The notes under the pieces are model-generated. The model was not told the origin of the DNA. It saw nothing but the letters and a program-made list of their open reading frames with translations, and did not search any database. From a virus (Duplodnaviria; Heunggongvirae; Uroviricota; Caudoviricetes), in IMG/VR virus record IMGVR_UViG_2541047695_000005, positions 1-25,968 of that record: DNA of 25,968 bases; one strand, written 5' to 3'. Made by a program: the position numbers and the translations under genes. Positions 1 to 18,562 of this stretch are shown here, piece by piece (positions within the stretch are counted from its first letter, which is position 1; each line of letters begins with the position of its first letter).

Positions 1-90
1 CGGGTTCGCATAAGGGTCGCCGCTCCCGTTATAAACCCACAGGGTGGTTCCGGCACCTTTCACCGGTATTGCTGGATTTGGTACAGGCAT
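1..90 (-). CDS. V: major tail protein V, 5' part only (gene runs off the window start)
   Basis: Reverse complement of 1-90 starts with ATG and reads [30 protein letters not shown], matching the lambda gpV N-terminus as I recall it; it starts 8 nt after the U stop, as in lambda. Confidence 0.8.
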
Positions 91-12800: not shown

Positions 12801-13016
12801 TTACTCTCCCCGTGCCGCCTTACGACGGTCCTCTCTGATTTTGAAATACAGGTTAGTCAGATATGTCAGCAGCCCAAACAGCAGACTTCCCAGCACGCCT
12901 ATTGCCGCCCACTGAGACGGGGAAACCCTGTCCAGCAACTGCAGGAACCAGTAGCCCGTTCCCACCGCTGACGTGGTGTATGACACACCTGTTGTGATTT
13001 TTTCCATCTGGTCCAT
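12801..13016 (-). CDS. S: holin/antiholin, phage-21 S-type pinholin with dual start
   Basis: From residue 36 of the track ORF: [71 protein letters not shown], 71 aa; two in-frame Met codons three codons apart (13016 and 13007), two TM helices and a charged C-terminus, near-identical to S21 as I recall it. Confidence 0.85.
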
Positions 13017-13165
13017 ACCCCGTCTCCCGTTATCCGGAAGCTGACAACAATAAAAAAGCCACCAGTTAACTACTGATGGCTCTGATAACTCATGCAAGCG
13101 TCTCAGACGACCCACTGACACTACCGGTGAGTTTAACGATACCTTCCATTTGACTGGCTCACTTT

Positions 13166-13327
13166 TTATGATGATGCCGGTGCATTTATCTCCAGCGCCA
13201 GACTTTCTATCTCAACGCCATACGTTGCATTTTTGGTAATATCCGTCAGCGTCAGTGCATTTAGTCCCACTGCCAGACTGTCTTTAATGGCCTGGAATGC
13301 CGGGCCAGTACGATGACGTAGTATCAC
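13166..13327 (-). CDS. hypothetical small protein (53 aa), GTG start coupled to the upstream stop
   Basis: My hand translation gives GTG overlapping the TGA of the upstream gene (GTGA) and an open frame to TAA; it is below the track's 60-aa cut-off and unverified. Confidence 0.2.
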
Positions 13328-13512
13328 TCCGGCTCAGTTGCACCACTGACCACCACATCACCTTCTGCTGCAATCGCCTGCATCAGGGTATAAGGGGTTA
13401 TGGCCACCGGACTACCAAACGGCTGCCAGCCCTCTTTCAGTTTATGTGTCAGCTTTTCCGCAAGATCTGACGGCGGCGCCGCCCTGACAACATCATAGTG
13501 TTTAAATGCCAT
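13324..13512 (-). CDS. small conserved phage protein (DUF1737-like) upstream of the holin
   Basis: ATG at residue 5 of the track ORF with GGAAAG RBS; MAFKHYDVVRAAPPSDLAEKLTHKLKEGWQPFGSPVAITPYTLMQAIAAEG fits the short GWQP.G family commonly found just upstream of lambdoid holins. Confidence 0.5.
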   Translation of the reverse strand: MAFKHYDVVRAAPPSDLAEKLTHKLKEGWQPFGSPVAITPYTLMQAIAAEGDVVVSGATEPE

Positions 13513-13772
13513 GGTTCTTTCCACTATCTGAAAAATAATTCTTTAAAATACCTGACATGTAATACAGAAAAAACACAAAACTATACCTTAAATAAAAACC
13601 TGATTATCAAGCAGATATGCATGGATAAACTACAAGACGAGATATAAACCACCCTGCATTTAAATAAACAATAAACAACATCAGAAAAATAATTCTGCTC
13701 TATGGTTTACATTCAAAAATATCATTTATACTTTTCAGGACATCACCAGCAAGGCATAAACAAGGAAACCAA

Positions 13773-14108
13773 ATGAAGTGGATTGTGATTGATACAGTTA
13801 TCCAGCCATCATGCGGAATATCTTTTTCAGTCATATGGAGTAAAATAAAATTAATAATCTGGTATCAATCGGATGCTTTCTTACCTCCTGAAAGTATATT
13901 TACACTGACTCACACAGGCATCATGCTCAATAACAAAGTGCTACCTGTAACCATTTACAACGTAGTACCATTCAATAAAACATTCTGGAATTTAATCAAA
14001 AACAGCCAGGAATGCCCTACAAATACAGATAACGTATTGAATGAATGCTTTAATAACCGTTGCACTCTGCAAATATGTCCTTATGGACTAAAACAACAAA
14101 GTCCATAA
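13773..14108 (+). CDS. hypothetical Cys-rich 111-aa protein (moron, own promoter)
   Basis: ATG preceded by AAGGAA at about 7 nt; upstream TTTACA-15 nt-TATACT promoter-like motif at about 13706-13732; very AT-rich; C-terminal Cys pattern [26 protein letters not shown]; a hairpin (CAGCCCCTC-CGGA-GAGGGGCTG) about 35 nt downstream. Confidence 0.4.
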
Positions 14109-14555
14109 GGAGTTTACTCACATCTGACAAAATCAATATAAACAGCCCCTCCGGAGAGGGGCTGGAGAGTGGCGCTATGTGCCATTGCATGGTGCCGGGT
14201 GCCTCCCGGTGAATTCAGTACCAGCACCTGAATCCGCGATTATCCCATATACCTACTCGCTGATTGCCCCTCCGCACAGGGGGATTCACCATGCCAGTTT
14301 CTTTTAACAAACTCCCCGCAAACCAGACAACAGTCAACCGCCTGAATTGTGAAGTATTTAAAAATTTCTCCCGCTAACTGATACCCGGCTAACAGTCTGG
14401 CGTTTTCTTTTTCAGCAACGGAAAAGCAACAACCACCACACCTGCCACCAGCACACCGTCAGCCAGCACTGACATTATCCGGCTGCTGCAATGCCATTCA
14501 CAAAAACAGTAAGCAATCACTTTTTACCGTAACAGGTGATAATCCAGATATGTAT

Positions 14556-14909
14556 CTACCCCAGATGAGTAATCCGAAGTTCATCCATACCACAGGTCCT
14601 GGCTATTCTGTTGTACTCCTGAACAAGAGCAAATAATTCTGAATTAGCAACCATGAACTCATCGCTAACCCTCTGTATAGCATCACTATTCAGAATAATA
14701 ACGTCTCTTCCCGAAAGACGATCAGGAGTACAAAACAAAACTGTCAAACGGCTGAAGGCCTTTGCTCGTGCTGCATTGACTATATCAATACGCTGCCTAA
14801 GGATGAAACACCCCGACGCCTCATCAATATTCACTCTACCCACACCATATGAATGATAAATATTTAATGCTGAAAAAACCATTAGACGGTATAACAAACA
14901 CTCAATCAA
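14556..14909 (-). CDS. hypothetical ORF (possible gene remnant)
   Basis: 117-aa track ORF with TTG start and no convincing RBS; the region has mixed composition. Reported at low confidence only. Confidence 0.2.
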   Translation of the reverse strand: MIECLLYRLMVFSALNIYHSYGVGRVNIDEASGCFILRQRIDIVNAARAKAFSRLTVLFCTPDRLSGRDVIILNSDAIQRVSDEFMVANSELFALVQEYNRIARTCGMDELRITHLG

Positions 14910-15019
14910 TACTTAACAGAACTTTTATTTTTGACAAACATATAATATTTTCAACAAGATCCTGAGCCAAGTATATTTCAGTATAAGGCTCTGCCGGAAG
15001 GAATCTGGAAGAATGAATA

Positions 15020-15095
15020 TGGCGCGCTGTACTGGATTTGAACCAGCGACCTGGCGATTATGAGTCGCTCGCTCTCACCACTGAGCTAAAGGACC
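15020..15095 (-). tRNA. tRNA-like gene, anticodon CAT (Ile2/Met-type), acceptor stem unpaired - probable pseudo-tRNA
   Basis: The minus strand aligns arm by arm with the E. coli tRNA-Ile2 cloverleaf (D-arm GCTC-AGTGGTGA-GAGC, anticodon loop CTCATAA, T-arm GCTGG-TTCAAAT-CCAGT, encoded CCA), but the 5' acceptor GGTCCTT cannot pair with the 3' ACAGCGC. Confidence 0.5.
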
Positions 15096-15130
15096 GGGAG
15101 CAGAATAATAACGGTCCGTAATTAATTCCG

Positions 15131-15158
15131 CAATAAAAAACCCGCTCGGCGGCGGGTT
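15131..15158 (-). terminator. tR'-like intrinsic terminator downstream of Q
   Basis: Minus strand: AACCCGC-CGCCGA-GCGGGTT followed by TTTTTATTG. Confidence 0.5.
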
Positions 15159-15197
15159 GTAGAAACTCTTCTAACGTCAGGCATAAAACGCCCATCG

Positions 15198-15233
15198 TTA
15201 TGACGAATTTACCACAGATTCCGGAAAAATCAA
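15198..15233 (-). promoter_or_regulatory. pR'-like late promoter (putative Q-utilisation region)
   Basis: Minus strand TTGATT, 16-nt spacer, TGgTAAATT (extended -10) beginning immediately after the Q stop; about 60 nt upstream of the terminator, resembling lambdoid pR'/tR' units. Confidence 0.45.
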
Positions 15234-15238
15234 CCTTG

Positions 15239-16060
15239 TTACCTAGTTACCTTTTTTAACTGCCGCTCAGCCCATGCTTCTTCAATATCAAACCGGGTCA
15301 CCAGCGCATCATAGAATTTCTTAACTGTTTTTTCCCATGACGCGCGTGTTATCTGGTTTGTCACCTCGCATATAGCATTAAATGCCTCCGTTGATGGTAG
15401 CCTTTCATAGCCACGACCACCACAACGCTGGCAGTCTCTGATAACAGGCATACCACGTTTTACCGACTCTTCACGATGAATGGCGACACCACGCCCACGG
15501 CAATCCTTACAGGCGGTGGAAACCTCACCCTTCCCGCCACACTCCGGACAGGCAACTTTTACCACCTCCCTGACTTTTTTCCATTCTTCCCAGTAAGACG
15601 GATACACACCTTTCGTACACTTTGCCCATACCGGCGGCTTACCATCCGGATACTGGACCTTGTTTGTAAAAACTACGCTTTCAATAAATTTTTCCCCATA
15701 GCAACAAGGGCACAGCTTTTTACTCGCTGCGCTGCGGGCATAATCCTCAAAAGCGCACGAAGCCATAATGCGCATCACTACCGGTTTTATTTCTGCCGGA
15801 AGTTTTCTCAACGCCGCCACACGATCGCACCGACTGAGTGCATAATCTGCCAGTAATTCTGTTGCCCGCGCCCTGTCATTCATACTGATGCCCATCTTCC
15901 CCAGGAACGCAGAAAACCCCATCTCAGCCCGATTCTGTGTCATGCCCTGCGCGGCCATCACATCAGTGATACTCAGCGCATCTTTTGACGTTGAGGCCGA
16001 TGCATCGGTCAGGCAAGGGGATTTTGGGGAGTAGTATTTCGGTAAATCTTCCAGTTTCAT
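15239..16060 (-). CDS. Q: late antiterminator Q (QuuQ/phage-82-like family)
   Basis: 273-aa ORF; N-terminus (..PKYYSPKSPCLTDASASTSKD.LSITDVMAAQGM..) and Cys-x-x-Cys-Gly-x-Gly repeats (CPECGGKG, CKDCRGRG, CQRCGGRG) resemble Qin-type Q as I recall it; it sits directly upstream of the pR'/tR'-like unit and downstream of rusA. Confidence 0.65.
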   Translation of the reverse strand: MKLEDLPKYYSPKSPCLTDASASTSKDALSITDVMAAQGMTQNRAEMGFSAFLGKMGISMNDRARATELLADYALSRCDRVAALRKLPAEIKPVVMRIMASCAFEDYARSAASKKLCPCCYGEKFIESVVFTNKVQYPDGKPPVWAKCTKGVYPSYWEEWKKVREVVKVACPECGGKGEVSTACKDCRGRGVAIHREESVKRGMPVIRDCQRCGGRGYERLPSTEAFNAICEVTNQITRASWEKTVKKFYDALVTRFDIEEAWAERQLKKVTR

Positions 16061-16431
16061 TTTTTGACCTGCTCTTCATGCATTATGGGGTAAATCTTCA
16101 CCCCCAGACGTCCACCAGATACTGGCTGACCACGAACGATATTGATTTCATCAAACTGCTCATCGTCCATTAACACTCCCGCATGCGTCAGCGCATCCAG
16201 CGGTGCTTTCAGGATATTGTCCAGGTCGCGACGACGCTTATCCGGTGGCTCTGCAATCACCTTTATCGCCAGCCTTCCGGACAGGCTTAATTTCAGCCGC
16301 TGCTGGCGAACAATAAGCGCCACAGCACGGCGATAACGCTTTCCCTCCTCCGAGATAAAATATGTGCTGCCACGGCGTCGCCAGTAAGTGTTCACCGTCG
16401 GCGGGTAAGGTAAAACCAAATCTATGAGCAT
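16057..16431 (-). CDS. rusA: Holliday junction resolvase RusA
   Basis: 124-aa ORF with the RusA pattern (LPYPPTVNTYWRRRG...PDKRRRDLDNILKAPLDALTHAGVLMDDEQ...SGGRLGVKI); stop overlaps the Q start. Confidence 0.85.
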   Translation of the reverse strand: MLIDLVLPYPPTVNTYWRRRGSTYFISEEGKRYRRAVALIVRQQRLKLSLSGRLAIKVIAEPPDKRRRDLDNILKAPLDALTHAGVLMDDEQFDEINIVRGQPVSGGRLGVKIYPIMHEEQVKK

Positions 16432-16443
16432 CAGTCACCTCTT

Positions 16444-17493
16444 TTACCCAAGCACGCCAGTTGCAAAGGCGTGATCAAGAAAACGAAAAATTAAATCAAC
16501 CTGAGAACCATGCTTTTCTTCGAACGCCAGCGGATCCGCATGAAGCTCGTTGTGATGCTCCCGACACAGCGGTAGCGTGAAAATATCGTGAGATTTTGTC
16601 CCCATTCCGCCCTGACCATGACCAATCAGGTGATGGGGATCGTCGGCTGGCTTACCACAACACGCACACGGCTGTGTCTTCACCCAGCGTGTGTATTTCT
16701 CGTTAACCCAGCGGCGACGTTTAGGTCGTTTCATGAAAGATTCCGGAGACTCAGGATCAACGGCAATGCTGACCACCGTCTTTTCCTGTGGTGGGTTCTG
16801 TTGCTGGTGGGCGTGAGGCAGCGGCGCAAGATTTTTTGTGCGCTGTTTCAGTATGCTGGTGGCGGTCTGCTCTCCCGGTACGATGTCGCTTTCACGGTAC
16901 ATTGAGCGGATTTTTTCCGCACGCAACCCCAGCGAACGACGTAATACCGCTTCCGGTAGCGCGTCCGCCACCTGATTGCGGACCGCCCACCAGGATAATT
17001 CAGCCAGAGATAATTCACGCTCCTGCGTACCGCTTATTGCGTGACCGATGACGTCAATCATCCATGCTGACAGGTTTTGATGAGCAAGTTGCTCGAGTGA
17101 TTCGGATGTCTGGTCACGCAGCTGGTTGTCGCAGTGCCAGCACAACACCATTGCGCCGGTACCATAACGGTGAATGACGGTTTCGCTGTGATGATAATCG
17201 CCGTGTGGCCACTGGCAGGATTTAATATGGCGCAACAGCCAGTCAGACAATGCACCAGCACCACCAGCAGCACGAATCACCCGTGCGTTACTGAAAAACG
17301 GCAGCAATGTTTTGTCTTCCACCAGCGGCTGGCGAGCGGCAGGAACGACCCCGGACGGCAGATTACGCATGCTTTTCGGTTCCGGCTCCACCAGTAACCG
17401 GGTATTGTGGAATACCGGCATGGATTCACGGCCCGGCTTAACGATCACCAGCCCGAGTTCCGGTACCAGAACAGGTCGAAGTAATACCCGCAC
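16444..17493 (-). CDS. DUF968 family protein (YdfU-like) with C-terminal HNH-like Cys/His motif
   Basis: 349-aa ORF; the C-terminus CACCGKPADDPHHLIGHGQGGMGTKSHDIFTLPLCREHHNELH is an HNH/zinc-finger-like signature; length and position next to Q resemble Qin YdfU. Confidence 0.6.
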   Translation of the reverse strand: MRVLLRPVLVPELGLVIVKPGRESMPVFHNTRLLVEPEPKSMRNLPSGVVPAARQPLVEDKTLLPFFSNARVIRAAGGAGALSDWLLRHIKSCQWPHGDYHHSETVIHRYGTGAMVLCWHCDNQLRDQTSESLEQLAHQNLSAWMIDVIGHAISGTQERELSLAELSWWAVRNQVADALPEAVLRRSLGLRAEKIRSMYRESDIVPGEQTATSILKQRTKNLAPLPHAHQQQNPPQEKTVVSIAVDPESPESFMKRPKRRRWVNEKYTRWVKTQPCACCGKPADDPHHLIGHGQGGMGTKSHDIFTLPLCREHHNELHADPLAFEEKHGSQVDLIFRFLDHAFATGVLG

Positions 17494-17494
17494 G

Positions 17495-17773
17495 TTACCT
17501 CCAGATGCGTTGCTGGAATGTGTGGGACGGACGCGGCGGGCGTTCGGAGTAAGGCAATCTGACTGAGATTATCCAGTGACGGTAGTCGAGGCTAAGGGCT
17601 TTTTTAACCTCGTATCCGCGCCTGCGGTAACACTGAATTATCCATTCAGCCTGCTCTTCAGTGCATGGTGGATGCTGGAACCAGTCCGATTTGAATGCAT
17701 GAAAACGCCGTCCGCACCTGCTGGCAAAGACGGCAGAATCATCAGAATTGTGTAATTTGGTATCGTGCGCCAT
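17495..17773 (-). CDS. hypothetical protein (start uncertain; track ORF extends to 17884)
   Basis: Open frame ending 1 nt before the DUF968 start; an internal ATG (residue 38) gives 92 aa. The upstream extension runs into an AT-rich spacer. No family recognised. Confidence 0.35.
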   Translation of the reverse strand: MAHDTKLHNSDDSAVFASRCGRRFHAFKSDWFQHPPCTEEQAEWIIQCYRRRGYEVKKALSLDYRHWIISVRLPYSERPPRPSHTFQQRIWR

Positions 17774-18231: not shown

Positions 18232-18387
18232 TTACTCCTCAGGTTCGTAGACTGTGAAGACAGCGACCTCCGTCTGGCCGGTTCGGATTCGTACCTCGCA
18301 GAGGTCTTTCCTCGTTACCAGTGCCGTCACTATGACGGTTAAACAGATGACGATCAGGGCGATTAACATCGCCTTTTGCTGCTTCAT
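18232..18387 (-). CDS. hok: Hok/Gef family type I toxin
   Basis: In-frame ATG at residue 20 of the track ORF gives MKQQKAMLIALIVICLTVIVTALVTRKDLCEVRIRTGQTEVAVFTVYEPEE (51 aa), near-identical to E. coli HokD as I recall it. Confidence 0.85.
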   Translation of the reverse strand: MKQQKAMLIALIVICLTVIVTALVTRKDLCEVRIRTGQTEVAVFTVYEPEE

Positions 18388-18444
18388 AGCCTGCTTCTCC
18401 TTGCCTTTCGGCACGTAAGAGGCTAACCTAGATTTGCCGTTCAT
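18232..18444 (-). CDS. mok: mok-like N-terminally extended frame (70 codons) overlapping hok
   Basis: The same frame extended upstream by 19 codons; 70 codons equals the classical mok length in hok/mok/sok loci. Confidence 0.5.
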   Translation of the reverse strand: MNGKSRLASYVPKGKEKQAMKQQKAMLIALIVICLTVIVTALVTRKDLCEVRIRTGQTEVAVFTVYEPEE

Positions 18445-18500
18445 AGATTGAGCCTCAGATTAATGTTAAGCGTCTTGCAGGACGCGTAATGTTAACTGGG
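18430..18500 (+). ncRNA. sok: putative Sok-like antisense RNA (bounds approximate)
   Basis: Plus-strand TTGCCT-17 nt-TAACCT at about 18401-18429 would start a transcript antisense to the mok start region; a GCGTC-TTGCAG-GACGC hairpin lies at about 18471-18487. Inferred from hok/sok architecture, not verified. Confidence 0.3.
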
Positions 18501-18562
18501 GCTTTTCTCTATCTGCCTTTGGTGTTCATGCCTGAGACAGATAGCCTCAAGCACCCGCAGCC

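What the first reader, a model, noticed from the sequence alone, without database searches (positions are those of the whole stretch)
15020..15238. pR'/tR'-like unit followed by a tRNA(CAT)-like gene with a broken acceptor stem
A strong extended -10 promoter starts right after the Q stop and a strong intrinsic terminator follows about 60 nt later, the arrangement on which Q antiterminators act. The next element is a 76-nt tRNA-like sequence matching tRNA-Ile2-type arms and anticodon loop (CAT) with encoded CCA, but the acceptor 5' and 3' strands are not complementary. It is either a decaying copy of the phage-borne ileZ-type tRNA seen in Stx-like phages or a chimeric tRNA formed by recombination.
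Basis: partly seen in the sequence, partly recalled or inferred. Interest (0 to 1): 0.4.

Follow-up and report, generated by a model that had tools for sequence, protein, structure and literature searches.

The report
Late promoter unit plus fused pseudo-tRNA
Just downstream of a lambda-type Q antiterminator gene in an E. coli prophage lies an ordinary late promoter/terminator unit, followed by a dead tRNA made when a 177-base deletion fused the front of the phage tRNA-Ile gene ileZ to the tail of the tRNA-Arg gene argO; databases mislabel it tRNA-Met.

Summary
Both observations are real. (1) Five bases after the stop codon of a lambda-family Q gene (PF03589) lies a promoter: TTGATT, 16 nt, TGgTAAATT. 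Six bases further is AACGATGGG, identical in sequence and spacing to the sigma70 pause element of lambda pR'. A 7-bp GC-rich hairpin with a T run follows about 40 nt later. The unit is conserved in eight phages, and in SfV the hairpin is annotated as a terminator. (2) The 76-nt tRNA-like sequence (15095-15020, minus strand) has intact D, anticodon (CAU) and T arms and an encoded CCA, but only 3 of 7 acceptor pairs. Alignment with phages and E. coli strains carrying the ileZ-argN-argO array explains this. Positions 1-64 are ileZ. Positions 65-76 and everything downstream are the end of argO and its flank. A 177-bp deletion with its crossover in the shared T-arm sequence AATCCAG joined them. The same junction is present in 43 of 5,426 complete E. 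coli genomes, where it is annotated tRNA-Met, and in 2 IMG/VR contigs. About 2,580 of those genomes carry the undeleted array. I conclude it is a chimeric tRNA pseudogene in a known setting, of low novelty. Its inactivity is inferred, not tested.

The parts
15239..16060 (-). Q antiterminator gene (273 aa), lambda-Q family, with an extra CxxC-rich insertion
   Evidence: ORF. Pfam PF03589 at E = 5.8e-54. 31% identity to lambda Q and 41% to SfV Q.
15228..15233 (-). -35 hexamer TTGATT of the pR'-like late promoter, starting 5 nt after the Q stop codon
   Evidence: Sequence. TTG is conserved in 8 related phages.
15206..15214 (-). Extended -10 element TGgTAAATT. The hexamer TAAATT is the same as in lambda pR'.
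15191..15199 (-). Predicted transcription start and -10-like sigma70 pause element AACGAT plus the GGG discriminator-like triplet. It lies 6 nt after the -10 hexamer, exactly as in lambda pR' (+1 to +9).
   Evidence: Identical 9-mer and spacing in lambda. Role of AACGAT/GGG in lambda from PMC4005639. Invariant in 7 of 8 aligned phages; mEp460_ev081 has AATGAT.
15172..15200 (-). Conserved hairpin in the first ~30 nt of the predicted transcript; function unknown
   Evidence: Fold. 94.8% of cells paired, with one compensatory pair (U-A/C-G).
15133..15158 (-). tR'-like intrinsic terminator: stem AACCCGC/GCGGGTT, 6-nt loop, then TTTTTTATT
   Evidence: Scanner hit, fold, 100% pairing in 7 distinct sequences. 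The homologous stretch is annotated as a putative rho-independent terminator in SfV U82619.2.
15105..15133 (-). Weak promoter-like site TTGCGG-17 nt-TATTAT directly upstream of the tRNA (inferred, low confidence)
   Evidence: Read from the sequence. Below the scanner threshold. Conserved in Stx2a_F723, where homology to the window begins at this point.
15032..15095 (-). ileZ-derived part of the chimeric tRNA: positions 1-64, comprising the 5' acceptor strand, D arm, anticodon arm with CAT at 15062-15060, variable loop and most of the T arm. It carries one private substitution, C3>T at 15093.
   Evidence: 63 of 64 nt identical to ileZ of mEp460_ev081. Alignment A1.
15032..15038 (-). Crossover zone: AATCCAG, shared by the T arms of ileZ and argO. 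It is the last 7 nt of an 18/20 imperfect direct repeat, GGTCrCTGGTTCrAATCCAG.
   Evidence: The two BLAST segments overlap by 20 nt, and the deletion is 177 bp.
15020..15031 (-). argO-derived part: positions 65-76, TACAGCGC-G-CCA (last T-stem base, 3' acceptor strand, discriminator, CCA)
   Evidence: 12 of 12 nt identical to argO of mEp460_ev081, and the downstream flank is collinear with the argO flank.

Best explanation
The interval is the start of the late operon of a lambdoid E. coli prophage.

(a) Late transcription unit. A sigma70 promoter of lambda pR' type fires at about 15199. Sigma70 re-binds the -10-like AACGAT(GGG) at +1 to +9 and pauses RNA polymerase close to the promoter. The lambda-family Q protein encoded just upstream loads there. 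Without Q, transcription stops at the hairpin plus T run, giving an RNA of about 65 nt. With Q, it reads through into the tRNA region, the STnc100 region and the lysis and morphogenesis genes.

(b) Chimeric tRNA. The tRNA-like element is what remains of the phage tRNA cassette ileZ-argN-argO. A 177-bp deletion between the near-identical T arms of ileZ and argO, with its crossover inside AATCCAG, removed the 3' end of ileZ, all of argN and argO up to its T loop. The fusion pairs the ileZ 5' acceptor strand with the argO 3' acceptor strand, which are not complementary. The product therefore cannot form the acceptor/T-arm coaxial helix needed for RNase P processing, lysidine formation by TilS and charging by IleRS. 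It is a pseudogene.

Shown here: the sequence anatomy, the homology, the deletion and its population frequency. Inferred: promoter activity, Q dependence and loss of tRNA function.
For: Promoter, pause element and terminator:
- Q belongs to PF03589, as lambda Q does.
- GGTAAATT, 6 nt, then AACGATGGG is identical to lambda pR'.
- PMC4005639 states that AACGAT at +1 to +6 is the -10-like pause element and GGG is discriminator-like.
- The promoter, pause element and terminator are conserved across 8 phages whose Q proteins are down to 41% identical. The terminator helix is 100% paired, with only G-U-preserving changes.
- The homologous stretch in SfV is annotated as a terminator.

Chimera:
- Alignment A1 and BLAST show the window collinear with mEp460_ev081 except for a clean 177-bp gap. 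The gap runs from the ileZ T arm to the argO T arm.
- Positions 1-64 are 63/64 identical to ileZ. Positions 65-76 are 12/12 identical to argO.
- Acceptor pairing is 3/7 in the chimera, against 7/7 in both parent tRNAs.
- The Rfam score is 46.8 bits with a local alignment, against 72.5 and 68 bits for the parents.

Population:
- The same junction occurs in 43 of 5,426 complete E. coli genomes and in 2 IMG/VR contigs.
- The undeleted array occurs in about 2,580 of those genomes.
- The window's closest overall relatives, CFT073 and DA61218 at 99.5%, carry the intact three-tRNA array.
- The first 350 nt downstream of the junction share 4 of 4 informative SNPs with the other chimeric alleles. This suggests a single deletion event later moved between prophages by recombination.
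Against: - No expression or processing data were available. Promoter strength, Q dependence and tRNA inactivity are inferences.
- The pR' candidate scores only 8/12 to the sigma70 consensus and was not listed by the generic scanner.
- ARAGORN still calls a tRNA by sliding the 5' strand one base. That register gives 5/7 acceptor pairs but leaves a single nucleotide between the acceptor and D stems (and my own pairing count). A crippled but processed RNA is therefore not strictly excluded.
- The chimeric allele is 100% identical across 41 genomes. This is compatible with recent spread but cannot rule out selection.
- The single-origin inference rests on comparison with only two intact reference haplotypes.
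Confidence: 0.88

Rival explanations
1. The element is a single ileZ copy decaying by point mutations.
For: The window carries one private point change in the 5' acceptor strand, C3>T at 15093. This shows some drift.
Against: Seven of the eight differences from ileZ fall in the last 12 nt, and those 12 nt match argO 12/12. The downstream flank is the argO flank. Related genomes differ by one clean 177-bp gap.
Confidence: 0.03
2. The chimera is a functional non-canonical tRNA or tRNA-like RNA. Possible roles include a decoy for tRNA-targeting nucleases, a sponge for tRNA-modifying enzymes, or a processing signal in the late transcript. It would be kept because the D, anticodon and T arms and the CCA are intact.
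For: The three arms, the CAU anticodon loop and the CCA are perfectly preserved. The score is 46.8 bits, above the Rfam gathering score of 29. A register shifted by one base gives 5/7 acceptor pairs, which is how ARAGORN reads it. The allele is identical in 41 genomes from varied hosts and sources.
Against: The preserved arms are simply what a recent deletion leaves behind. The allele is rare, at 0.8% of genomes against about 48% with intact arrays. The window's private change converts a C-G to a U-G in the shifted register and makes no difference in the canonical register, as expected for neutral drift. A one-nucleotide acceptor/D connector removes U8. There is no covariation and no independent recurrence.
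Confidence: 0.05
3. The odd 3' end is the scar of site-specific integration of another element into the 3' half of a tRNA gene, that is, an att-site duplication.
For: Many integrases target the T-arm and 3' end of tRNA genes, and the break here is in the T arm.
Against: Both flanks are the same phage late region and are collinear with intact arrays. Sequence is missing rather than inserted, and no integrase or foreign segment adjoins the site.
Confidence: 0.01
4. The deletion is an assembly or sequencing artefact, produced by collapse of similar tRNA repeats.
For: The two T arms share 18 of 20 nt, a situation in which short-read assemblers can collapse repeats.
Against: The same junction occurs in 43 complete (closed) genomes from independent projects and in 2 IMG/VR contigs. 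An 18/20-nt repeat is far too short to mislead modern assemblies.
Confidence: 0.01

Closest known systems
Bacteriophage lambda late control unit: Q, pR', sigma70-dependent promoter-proximal pause, tR' (6S RNA)
   Same: Q belongs to the same Pfam family (PF03589) and is 31% identical. The promoter starts directly after Q. The -10 hexamer TAAATT is identical, the 6-nt spacing is identical, and AACGATGGG is identical at +1 to +9. An intrinsic terminator lies downstream.
   Different: The spacer between -35 and -10, which holds the Q-binding element in lambda, is unrelated in sequence. The terminated RNA would be about 65 nt, against the ~194 nt I recall for lambda 6S RNA (my own knowledge). The leader carries a conserved hairpin absent from lambda. 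Q has an extra ~65-aa Cys-rich insertion.
SfV / Evi / Stx2_EH1910 / mEp460_ev081 late promoter-terminator modules
   Same: The promoter-to-terminator segment is 80-99% identical. The SfV record annotates the hairpin as a putative rho-independent terminator.
   Different: Sequence downstream of the terminator differs between these phages (mosaic). Of them, only mEp460_ev081 was seen here to carry the tRNA cassette after this module.
ileZ-argN-argO tRNA cassette of Stx-converting and other lambdoid phages (e.g. Stx2a_F723 AP012533.1, E. coli DA61218/CFT073 prophage)
   Same: Same position downstream of Q/pR'/tR'. Same upstream leader from the TTGCrG...TATTAT segment onward. The first 64 nt are 63/64 identical to ileZ of mEp460_ev081, and the stretch shared with the window aligns without mismatch in Stx2a_F723. 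The window's 3' 12 nt are identical to argO of mEp460_ev081 and differ from argO of Stx2a_F723 at one base.
   Different: Only one fused gene remains in the window. argN, the 3' end of ileZ and the 5' three-quarters of argO are deleted, and the acceptor stem is broken.
E. coli tRNA-Ile2 (ileX/ileY; CAU anticodon, modified to lysidine by TilS)
   Same: CAU anticodon. PGAP labels the intact phage copies tRNA-Ile.
   Different: No acceptor helix. From my own knowledge of Ikeuchi et al. 2005, C4-G69 and C5-G68 are TilS determinants; here C5 faces A68. PGAP falls back to calling the chimera 'tRNA-Met'.

Membership tests
Lambda-type Q-dependent late promoter unit (pR'/tR') | A Q antiterminator gene of the lambda Q family lies immediately upstream | tested here: met
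   PF03589 at E = 5.8e-54. Lambda Q hits the same family. BLASTP against lambda Q gives 31% identity, E = 4e-38.
Lambda-type Q-dependent late promoter unit (pR'/tR') | A sigma70 promoter lies directly downstream of Q | tested here: met
   TTGATT, 16 nt, TGgTAAATT at 15233-15206. The -10 hexamer is identical to lambda pR' and is conserved in relatives. It scores only 8/12 to consensus, so the scanner did not list it. Promoter activity was not tested.
Lambda-type Q-dependent late promoter unit (pR'/tR') | A -10-like sigma70 pause-inducing element lies in the initial transcribed region | tested here: met
   AACGATGGG lies 6 nt after the -10 hexamer, identical in sequence and position to lambda +1 to +9.
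Lambda-type Q-dependent late promoter unit (pR'/tR') | A Q-binding element in the promoter, and Q-dependent read-through | not testable with these tools
   The -35/-10 spacer is conserved among close relatives but is unlike lambda. Binding or transcription assays are needed.
Lambda-type Q-dependent late promoter unit (pR'/tR') | An intrinsic terminator lies downstream of the pause site | tested here: met
   7-bp stem with 5 G-C pairs plus T6. -21.9 kcal/mol for leader plus hairpin. 100% paired in 7 distinct homologues. Annotated as a terminator in SfV.
Canonical elongator tRNA (tRNA-Ile2 / ileZ) | A seven-base-pair acceptor stem | tested here: not met
   3 of 7 pairs. The Rfam alignment covers only model positions 7-64. 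ARAGORN needs a one-base slide.
Canonical elongator tRNA (tRNA-Ile2 / ileZ) | D, anticodon and T arms, a CAU anticodon and a 3' CCA | tested here: met
   The closing pair of the T stem becomes G49-U65.
Canonical elongator tRNA (tRNA-Ile2 / ileZ) | Processing, lysidine modification and aminoacylation | not testable with these tools
   Needs RNA and biochemical data.
Phage ileZ-argN-argO tRNA cassette | Three separate tRNA genes in that order downstream of Q | tested here: not met
   Only one ARAGORN/Rfam hit in the window. Relatives have two or three.
Phage ileZ-argN-argO tRNA cassette | Homology of the flanks and of the remaining gene segments to the cassette | tested here: met
   98.4-98.9% identity on both sides of a 177-bp gap. 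Alignment A1.

The most novel reading that the evidence does not exclude
The ileZ/argO fusion is not inert. It would be transcribed from the late promoter or its own weak promoter. With its intact anticodon, D and T arms but unpaired acceptor end, it would act as a tRNA-like decoy or sponge, for example for anticodon nucleases or TilS. Alternatively it would act as an RNase processing signal that changes late-transcript stability. Either role would explain its spread between different prophage backgrounds.
Probability: 0.04. Interest if true: 0.5.

Novelty: new member of a known kind. Interest (0 to 1): 0.15.

Why it matters
The main value is for annotation and bookkeeping.
- The locus is labelled as a normal 'tRNA-Met' gene in 43 of the complete RefSeq E. 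coli genomes searched here. It is in fact a fusion pseudogene of a tRNA-Ile2 gene and a tRNA-Arg gene.
- It is a clean natural example of a deletion between the conserved T arms of neighbouring tRNA genes. It also shows that the late-region tRNA cassette of lambdoid phages is dispensable and prone to rearrangement.
- The pR'/tR' unit shows that the lambda sigma70 pause element AACGATGGG is kept base for base in phages whose Q proteins are only 31-41% identical. This is useful for predicting late-promoter starts but is not unexpected.

Tried and rejected
- Literature searches for ileZ/argN/argO, for chimeric tRNA in prophages, and for tRNA genes upstream of stx returned nothing that describes this fusion. 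The held library seems to lack the older Stx-phage papers.
- An exact-pattern scan of GTDB species-representative genomes for the junction found no match. Within the collections searched, the allele was seen only in E. coli genomes and two IMG/VR contigs.
- The phage collection contains no chimeric junction. Its top hits at 92% coverage are intact ileZ variants, for example Lyz12581Vzw, which has all three tRNAs.
- The Rfam Trp_leader hit at 15132-15238 scores 25.5 bits against a gathering score of 41. It is driven by the terminator hairpin and was rejected.
- The 45-aa ORF at 15058-15195(-), which overlaps the terminator and the tRNA, is treated as spurious.
- Independent recurrence of the deletion was considered because the window's closest overall relatives carry the intact array. 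However, linked SNPs just downstream of the junction group the window with the other chimeric alleles. A single origin followed by recombination is therefore favoured, though not proven.
- Covariation support for the leader hairpin is weak: one compensatory pair, probably a single event.

Full report
**Context**

The window is the late-gene side of a lambdoid E. coli prophage, read on the minus strand.
- In order, it encodes a DUF968 protein (16444-17493), RusA (16057-16431) and a 273-aa Q antiterminator (15239-16060).
- After the interval under study come a class II holin, DUF1327, a lysozyme, Rz, Rha, Nu1, terminase gpA and a lambda-type portal.
- The Q protein belongs to Pfam PF03589, the same family as lambda Q. 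It is 31% identical to lambda Q, with an extra Cys-rich insertion, and 41% identical to the Q of phage SfV.
- The Q of the Stx2a phage used below for comparison belongs to a different family, PF06530.

**Promoter and terminator**

*Promoter.*
- Five bases after the Q stop codon the minus strand reads TTGATT (15233-15228). A 16-nt spacer follows, then TGgTAAATT (15214-15206), six more bases, and AACGATGGG (15199-15191).
- Lambda's own sequence reads GGTAAATT-TGACTC-AACGATGGG. The -10 hexamer, the spacing and the nine-base block are identical.
- A paper on lambda pR' states that AACGAT at +1 to +6 is the -10-like element that makes sigma70 pause RNA polymerase at +16. It also states that the following GGG is discriminator-like (PMC4005639).
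- The generic promoter scan missed the site because it matches only 8/12 of the consensus. The homology argument is stronger than that score.

*Terminator.*
- About 40 nt downstream of the predicted start lies a 7-bp stem (AACCCGC/GCGGGTT, 5 G-C pairs), a 6-nt loop and TTTTTTATT (15158-15133).
- The region yielded 4 terminator-like hits against 0.9 expected from shuffles.

*Conservation.*
- The promoter-to-terminator module recurs at 80-99% identity in mEp460_ev081, four vB_EcoS phages and Evi.
- It also recurs in Stx2_EH1910, SfV, F1055, phiSTEC1575-Stx2k and PhiR47_1.
- In the eight-sequence alignment the TTG of the -35 hexamer, TAAnnT of the -10 hexamer, AACGATGGGC and the terminator are conserved.
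- The terminator helix is 100% paired, with only G-U-preserving single changes. A second hairpin spanning +1 to +29 is 95% paired, with one compensatory U-A/C-G pair.
- The SfV GenBank record annotates the homologous hairpin as a putative rho-independent terminator.
- The sub-threshold Trp_leader hit reflects this hairpin and is rejected.

The first half of the finding is therefore a genuine, ordinary lambda-type pR'/tR' unit. Promoter activity and Q dependence remain inferred.

**The tRNA-like element**

- ARAGORN reports tRNA-Met(CAT) at 15094-15020. It is 75 nt with the anticodon at position 33, meaning the 5' strand is slid by one base.
- Infernal scores 46.8 bits and aligns only model positions 7-64, so the acceptor stem is left out.
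- Reading the 76 nt from 15095: the 5' strand GGTCCTT faces the 3' strand ACAGCGC, giving 3 of 7 pairs. The D, anticodon and T arms and G73-CCA are intact.

**Origin of the chimera**

- Phage mEp460_ev081 matches the whole 451-nt neighbourhood, but in two pieces spanning 628 bp.
- Alignment with that phage, with the Stx2a_F723 cassette annotated ileZ/argN/argO and with an E. coli strain carrying the same allele as the window shows one clean gap.
- Window positions 1-64 match ileZ at 63 of 64 bases. Positions 65-76 match the end of argO at 12 of 12. The downstream flank is the argO flank at 98.4% over 866 nt.
- The two BLAST segments overlap by 20 nt, the imperfect direct repeat GGTCrCTGGTTCrAATCCAG formed by the two T arms. 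The deletion is 177 bp.
- The window keeps the ileZ bases at both mismatched repeat positions, so the crossover lies in the last seven bases, AATCCAG (15038-15032).
- Both parent tRNAs have 7/7 acceptor pairs and score 72.5 and 68 bits over the full Rfam model.
- The fusion leaves a G49-U65 closing pair in the T stem and a non-complementary acceptor end.
- By established tRNA biology (my own knowledge: RNase P and the synthetases need the acceptor/T-arm helix; TilS uses C4-G69 and C5-G68), such an RNA should be neither matured nor charged. This step is an inference.

**Distribution**

- A junction-spanning 64-nt query finds the exact fusion in 43 of 5,426 complete E. coli genomes. Of these, 41 match over the full length and 2 over 59 nt. 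All are annotated by PGAP as tRNA-Met and none is flagged as a pseudogene.
- The fusion is absent from the 50,697-record phage collection and from the GTDB species representatives. It is present in two IMG/VR contigs.
- The undeleted array is found in about 2,580 of the 5,426 genomes. The fusion is therefore a rare derivative.
- The window's nearest relatives over 4.5 kb, CFT073 and DA61218 at 99.5%, carry the intact ileZ-argN-argO array.
- Even so, the first ~350 nt downstream of the junction share all four informative SNPs with the other chimeric alleles. Beyond that point the sequence switches to the DA61218 type.
- The left flank carries several private changes and lacks the -7 A that marks the other chimeras.
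- The simplest reading is one deletion event whose product was later recombined into different prophage backgrounds. Recurrent deletion at the same 7-nt microhomology cannot be excluded.

**Rivals**

- Gradual decay of a lone ileZ is contradicted by the clustering of differences in the last 12 nt and their identity to argO.
- An integration scar is contradicted by flank collinearity and by the net loss of DNA.
- An assembly artefact is contradicted by 43 closed genomes.
- A functional tRNA-like RNA cannot be excluded without RNA data, but nothing positive supports it. The window's private C3>T change is what neutral drift would produce.

**Verdict**

The feature is a normal lambda-type late promoter/terminator unit followed by a fusion pseudogene derived from the well-known phage ileZ-argN-argO cassette. 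Novelty is low. The practical point is the systematic mis-annotation of this locus as tRNA-Met.

Noticed in passing
window 14134-14323 (-): Strong match to the sRNA family STnc100 (RF02076; 132 bits against a gathering score of 47). It lies about 700 nt downstream of the chimeric tRNA, right after a DUF3927 mini-ORF (14389-14520). The same element is present in mEp460_ev081 and E. coli 504838 at 114 bits.
   Followed up: partly
window 18382-18556 (-): sok antitoxin RNA (RF01794; 110 bits against a gathering score of 59). This indicates a hok/sok toxin-antitoxin module inside the prophage, upstream of the DUF968/RusA/Q genes.
   Followed up: no
L001 1785-1880 (mEp460_ev081); also the commonest array type in E. 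coli: The middle tRNA of the array (argN) is itself degenerate in this lineage. The acceptor strands CCGCCAT/ATGGCGG are retained, but the anticodon arm is scrambled and lengthened. ARAGORN and Rfam make no call, and PGAP lists only tRNA-Ile plus one tRNA-Arg. It may be a second pseudogene or an unusual tRNA-like RNA.
   Followed up: partly
E. coli genomes H216-H218: Other rearranged versions of the tRNA array exist. In these the match stops at query position 184, inside argO, and only tRNA-Ile is annotated. The cassette appears to be a rearrangement hot spot.
   Followed up: no
window 15172-15200 (-): A conserved hairpin covers +1 to +29 of the predicted pR' transcript and overlaps the AACGATGGG pause element. 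Across 8 phages it shows one compensatory pair (U-A/C-G). It is absent from lambda, and its role is unknown.
   Followed up: partly
window 15105-15133 (-): A weak promoter-like site, TTGCGG-17 nt-TATTAT, lies between tR' and the tRNA. Homology with the Stx2a_F723 tRNA cassette starts exactly here, although that phage has an unrelated Q (PF06530). This suggests the tRNA cassette moves as a module with its own upstream signals.
   Followed up: partly
window 13000-17500 compared with L015 (DA61218), L004, L013, L014: The late region is a fine-scale mosaic. The junction plus about 350 nt downstream follows the haplotype of the other chimeric alleles. Further downstream is CFT073/DA61218-type sequence, which is highly divergent from the mEp460 type. 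The left flank has several private SNPs.
   Followed up: partly
43 RefSeq E. coli genomes, e.g. NZ_CP025856.1 419882-419952: PGAP annotates the chimera as a 71-nt 'tRNA-Met', not as a pseudogene. Intact copies are annotated tRNA-Ile. This is a systematic mis-annotation.
   Followed up: yes
window 15196 and 15188 (-) compared with mEp460_ev081 / E. coli 504838: The pause element reads AACGAT in the window, Evi, Stx2_EH1910, the SfV group and lambda. It reads AATGAT in mEp460_ev081 and in E. coli 504838, one of the other chimeric loci. In the leader hairpin the change keeps pairing as a U-G pair.
   Followed up: no
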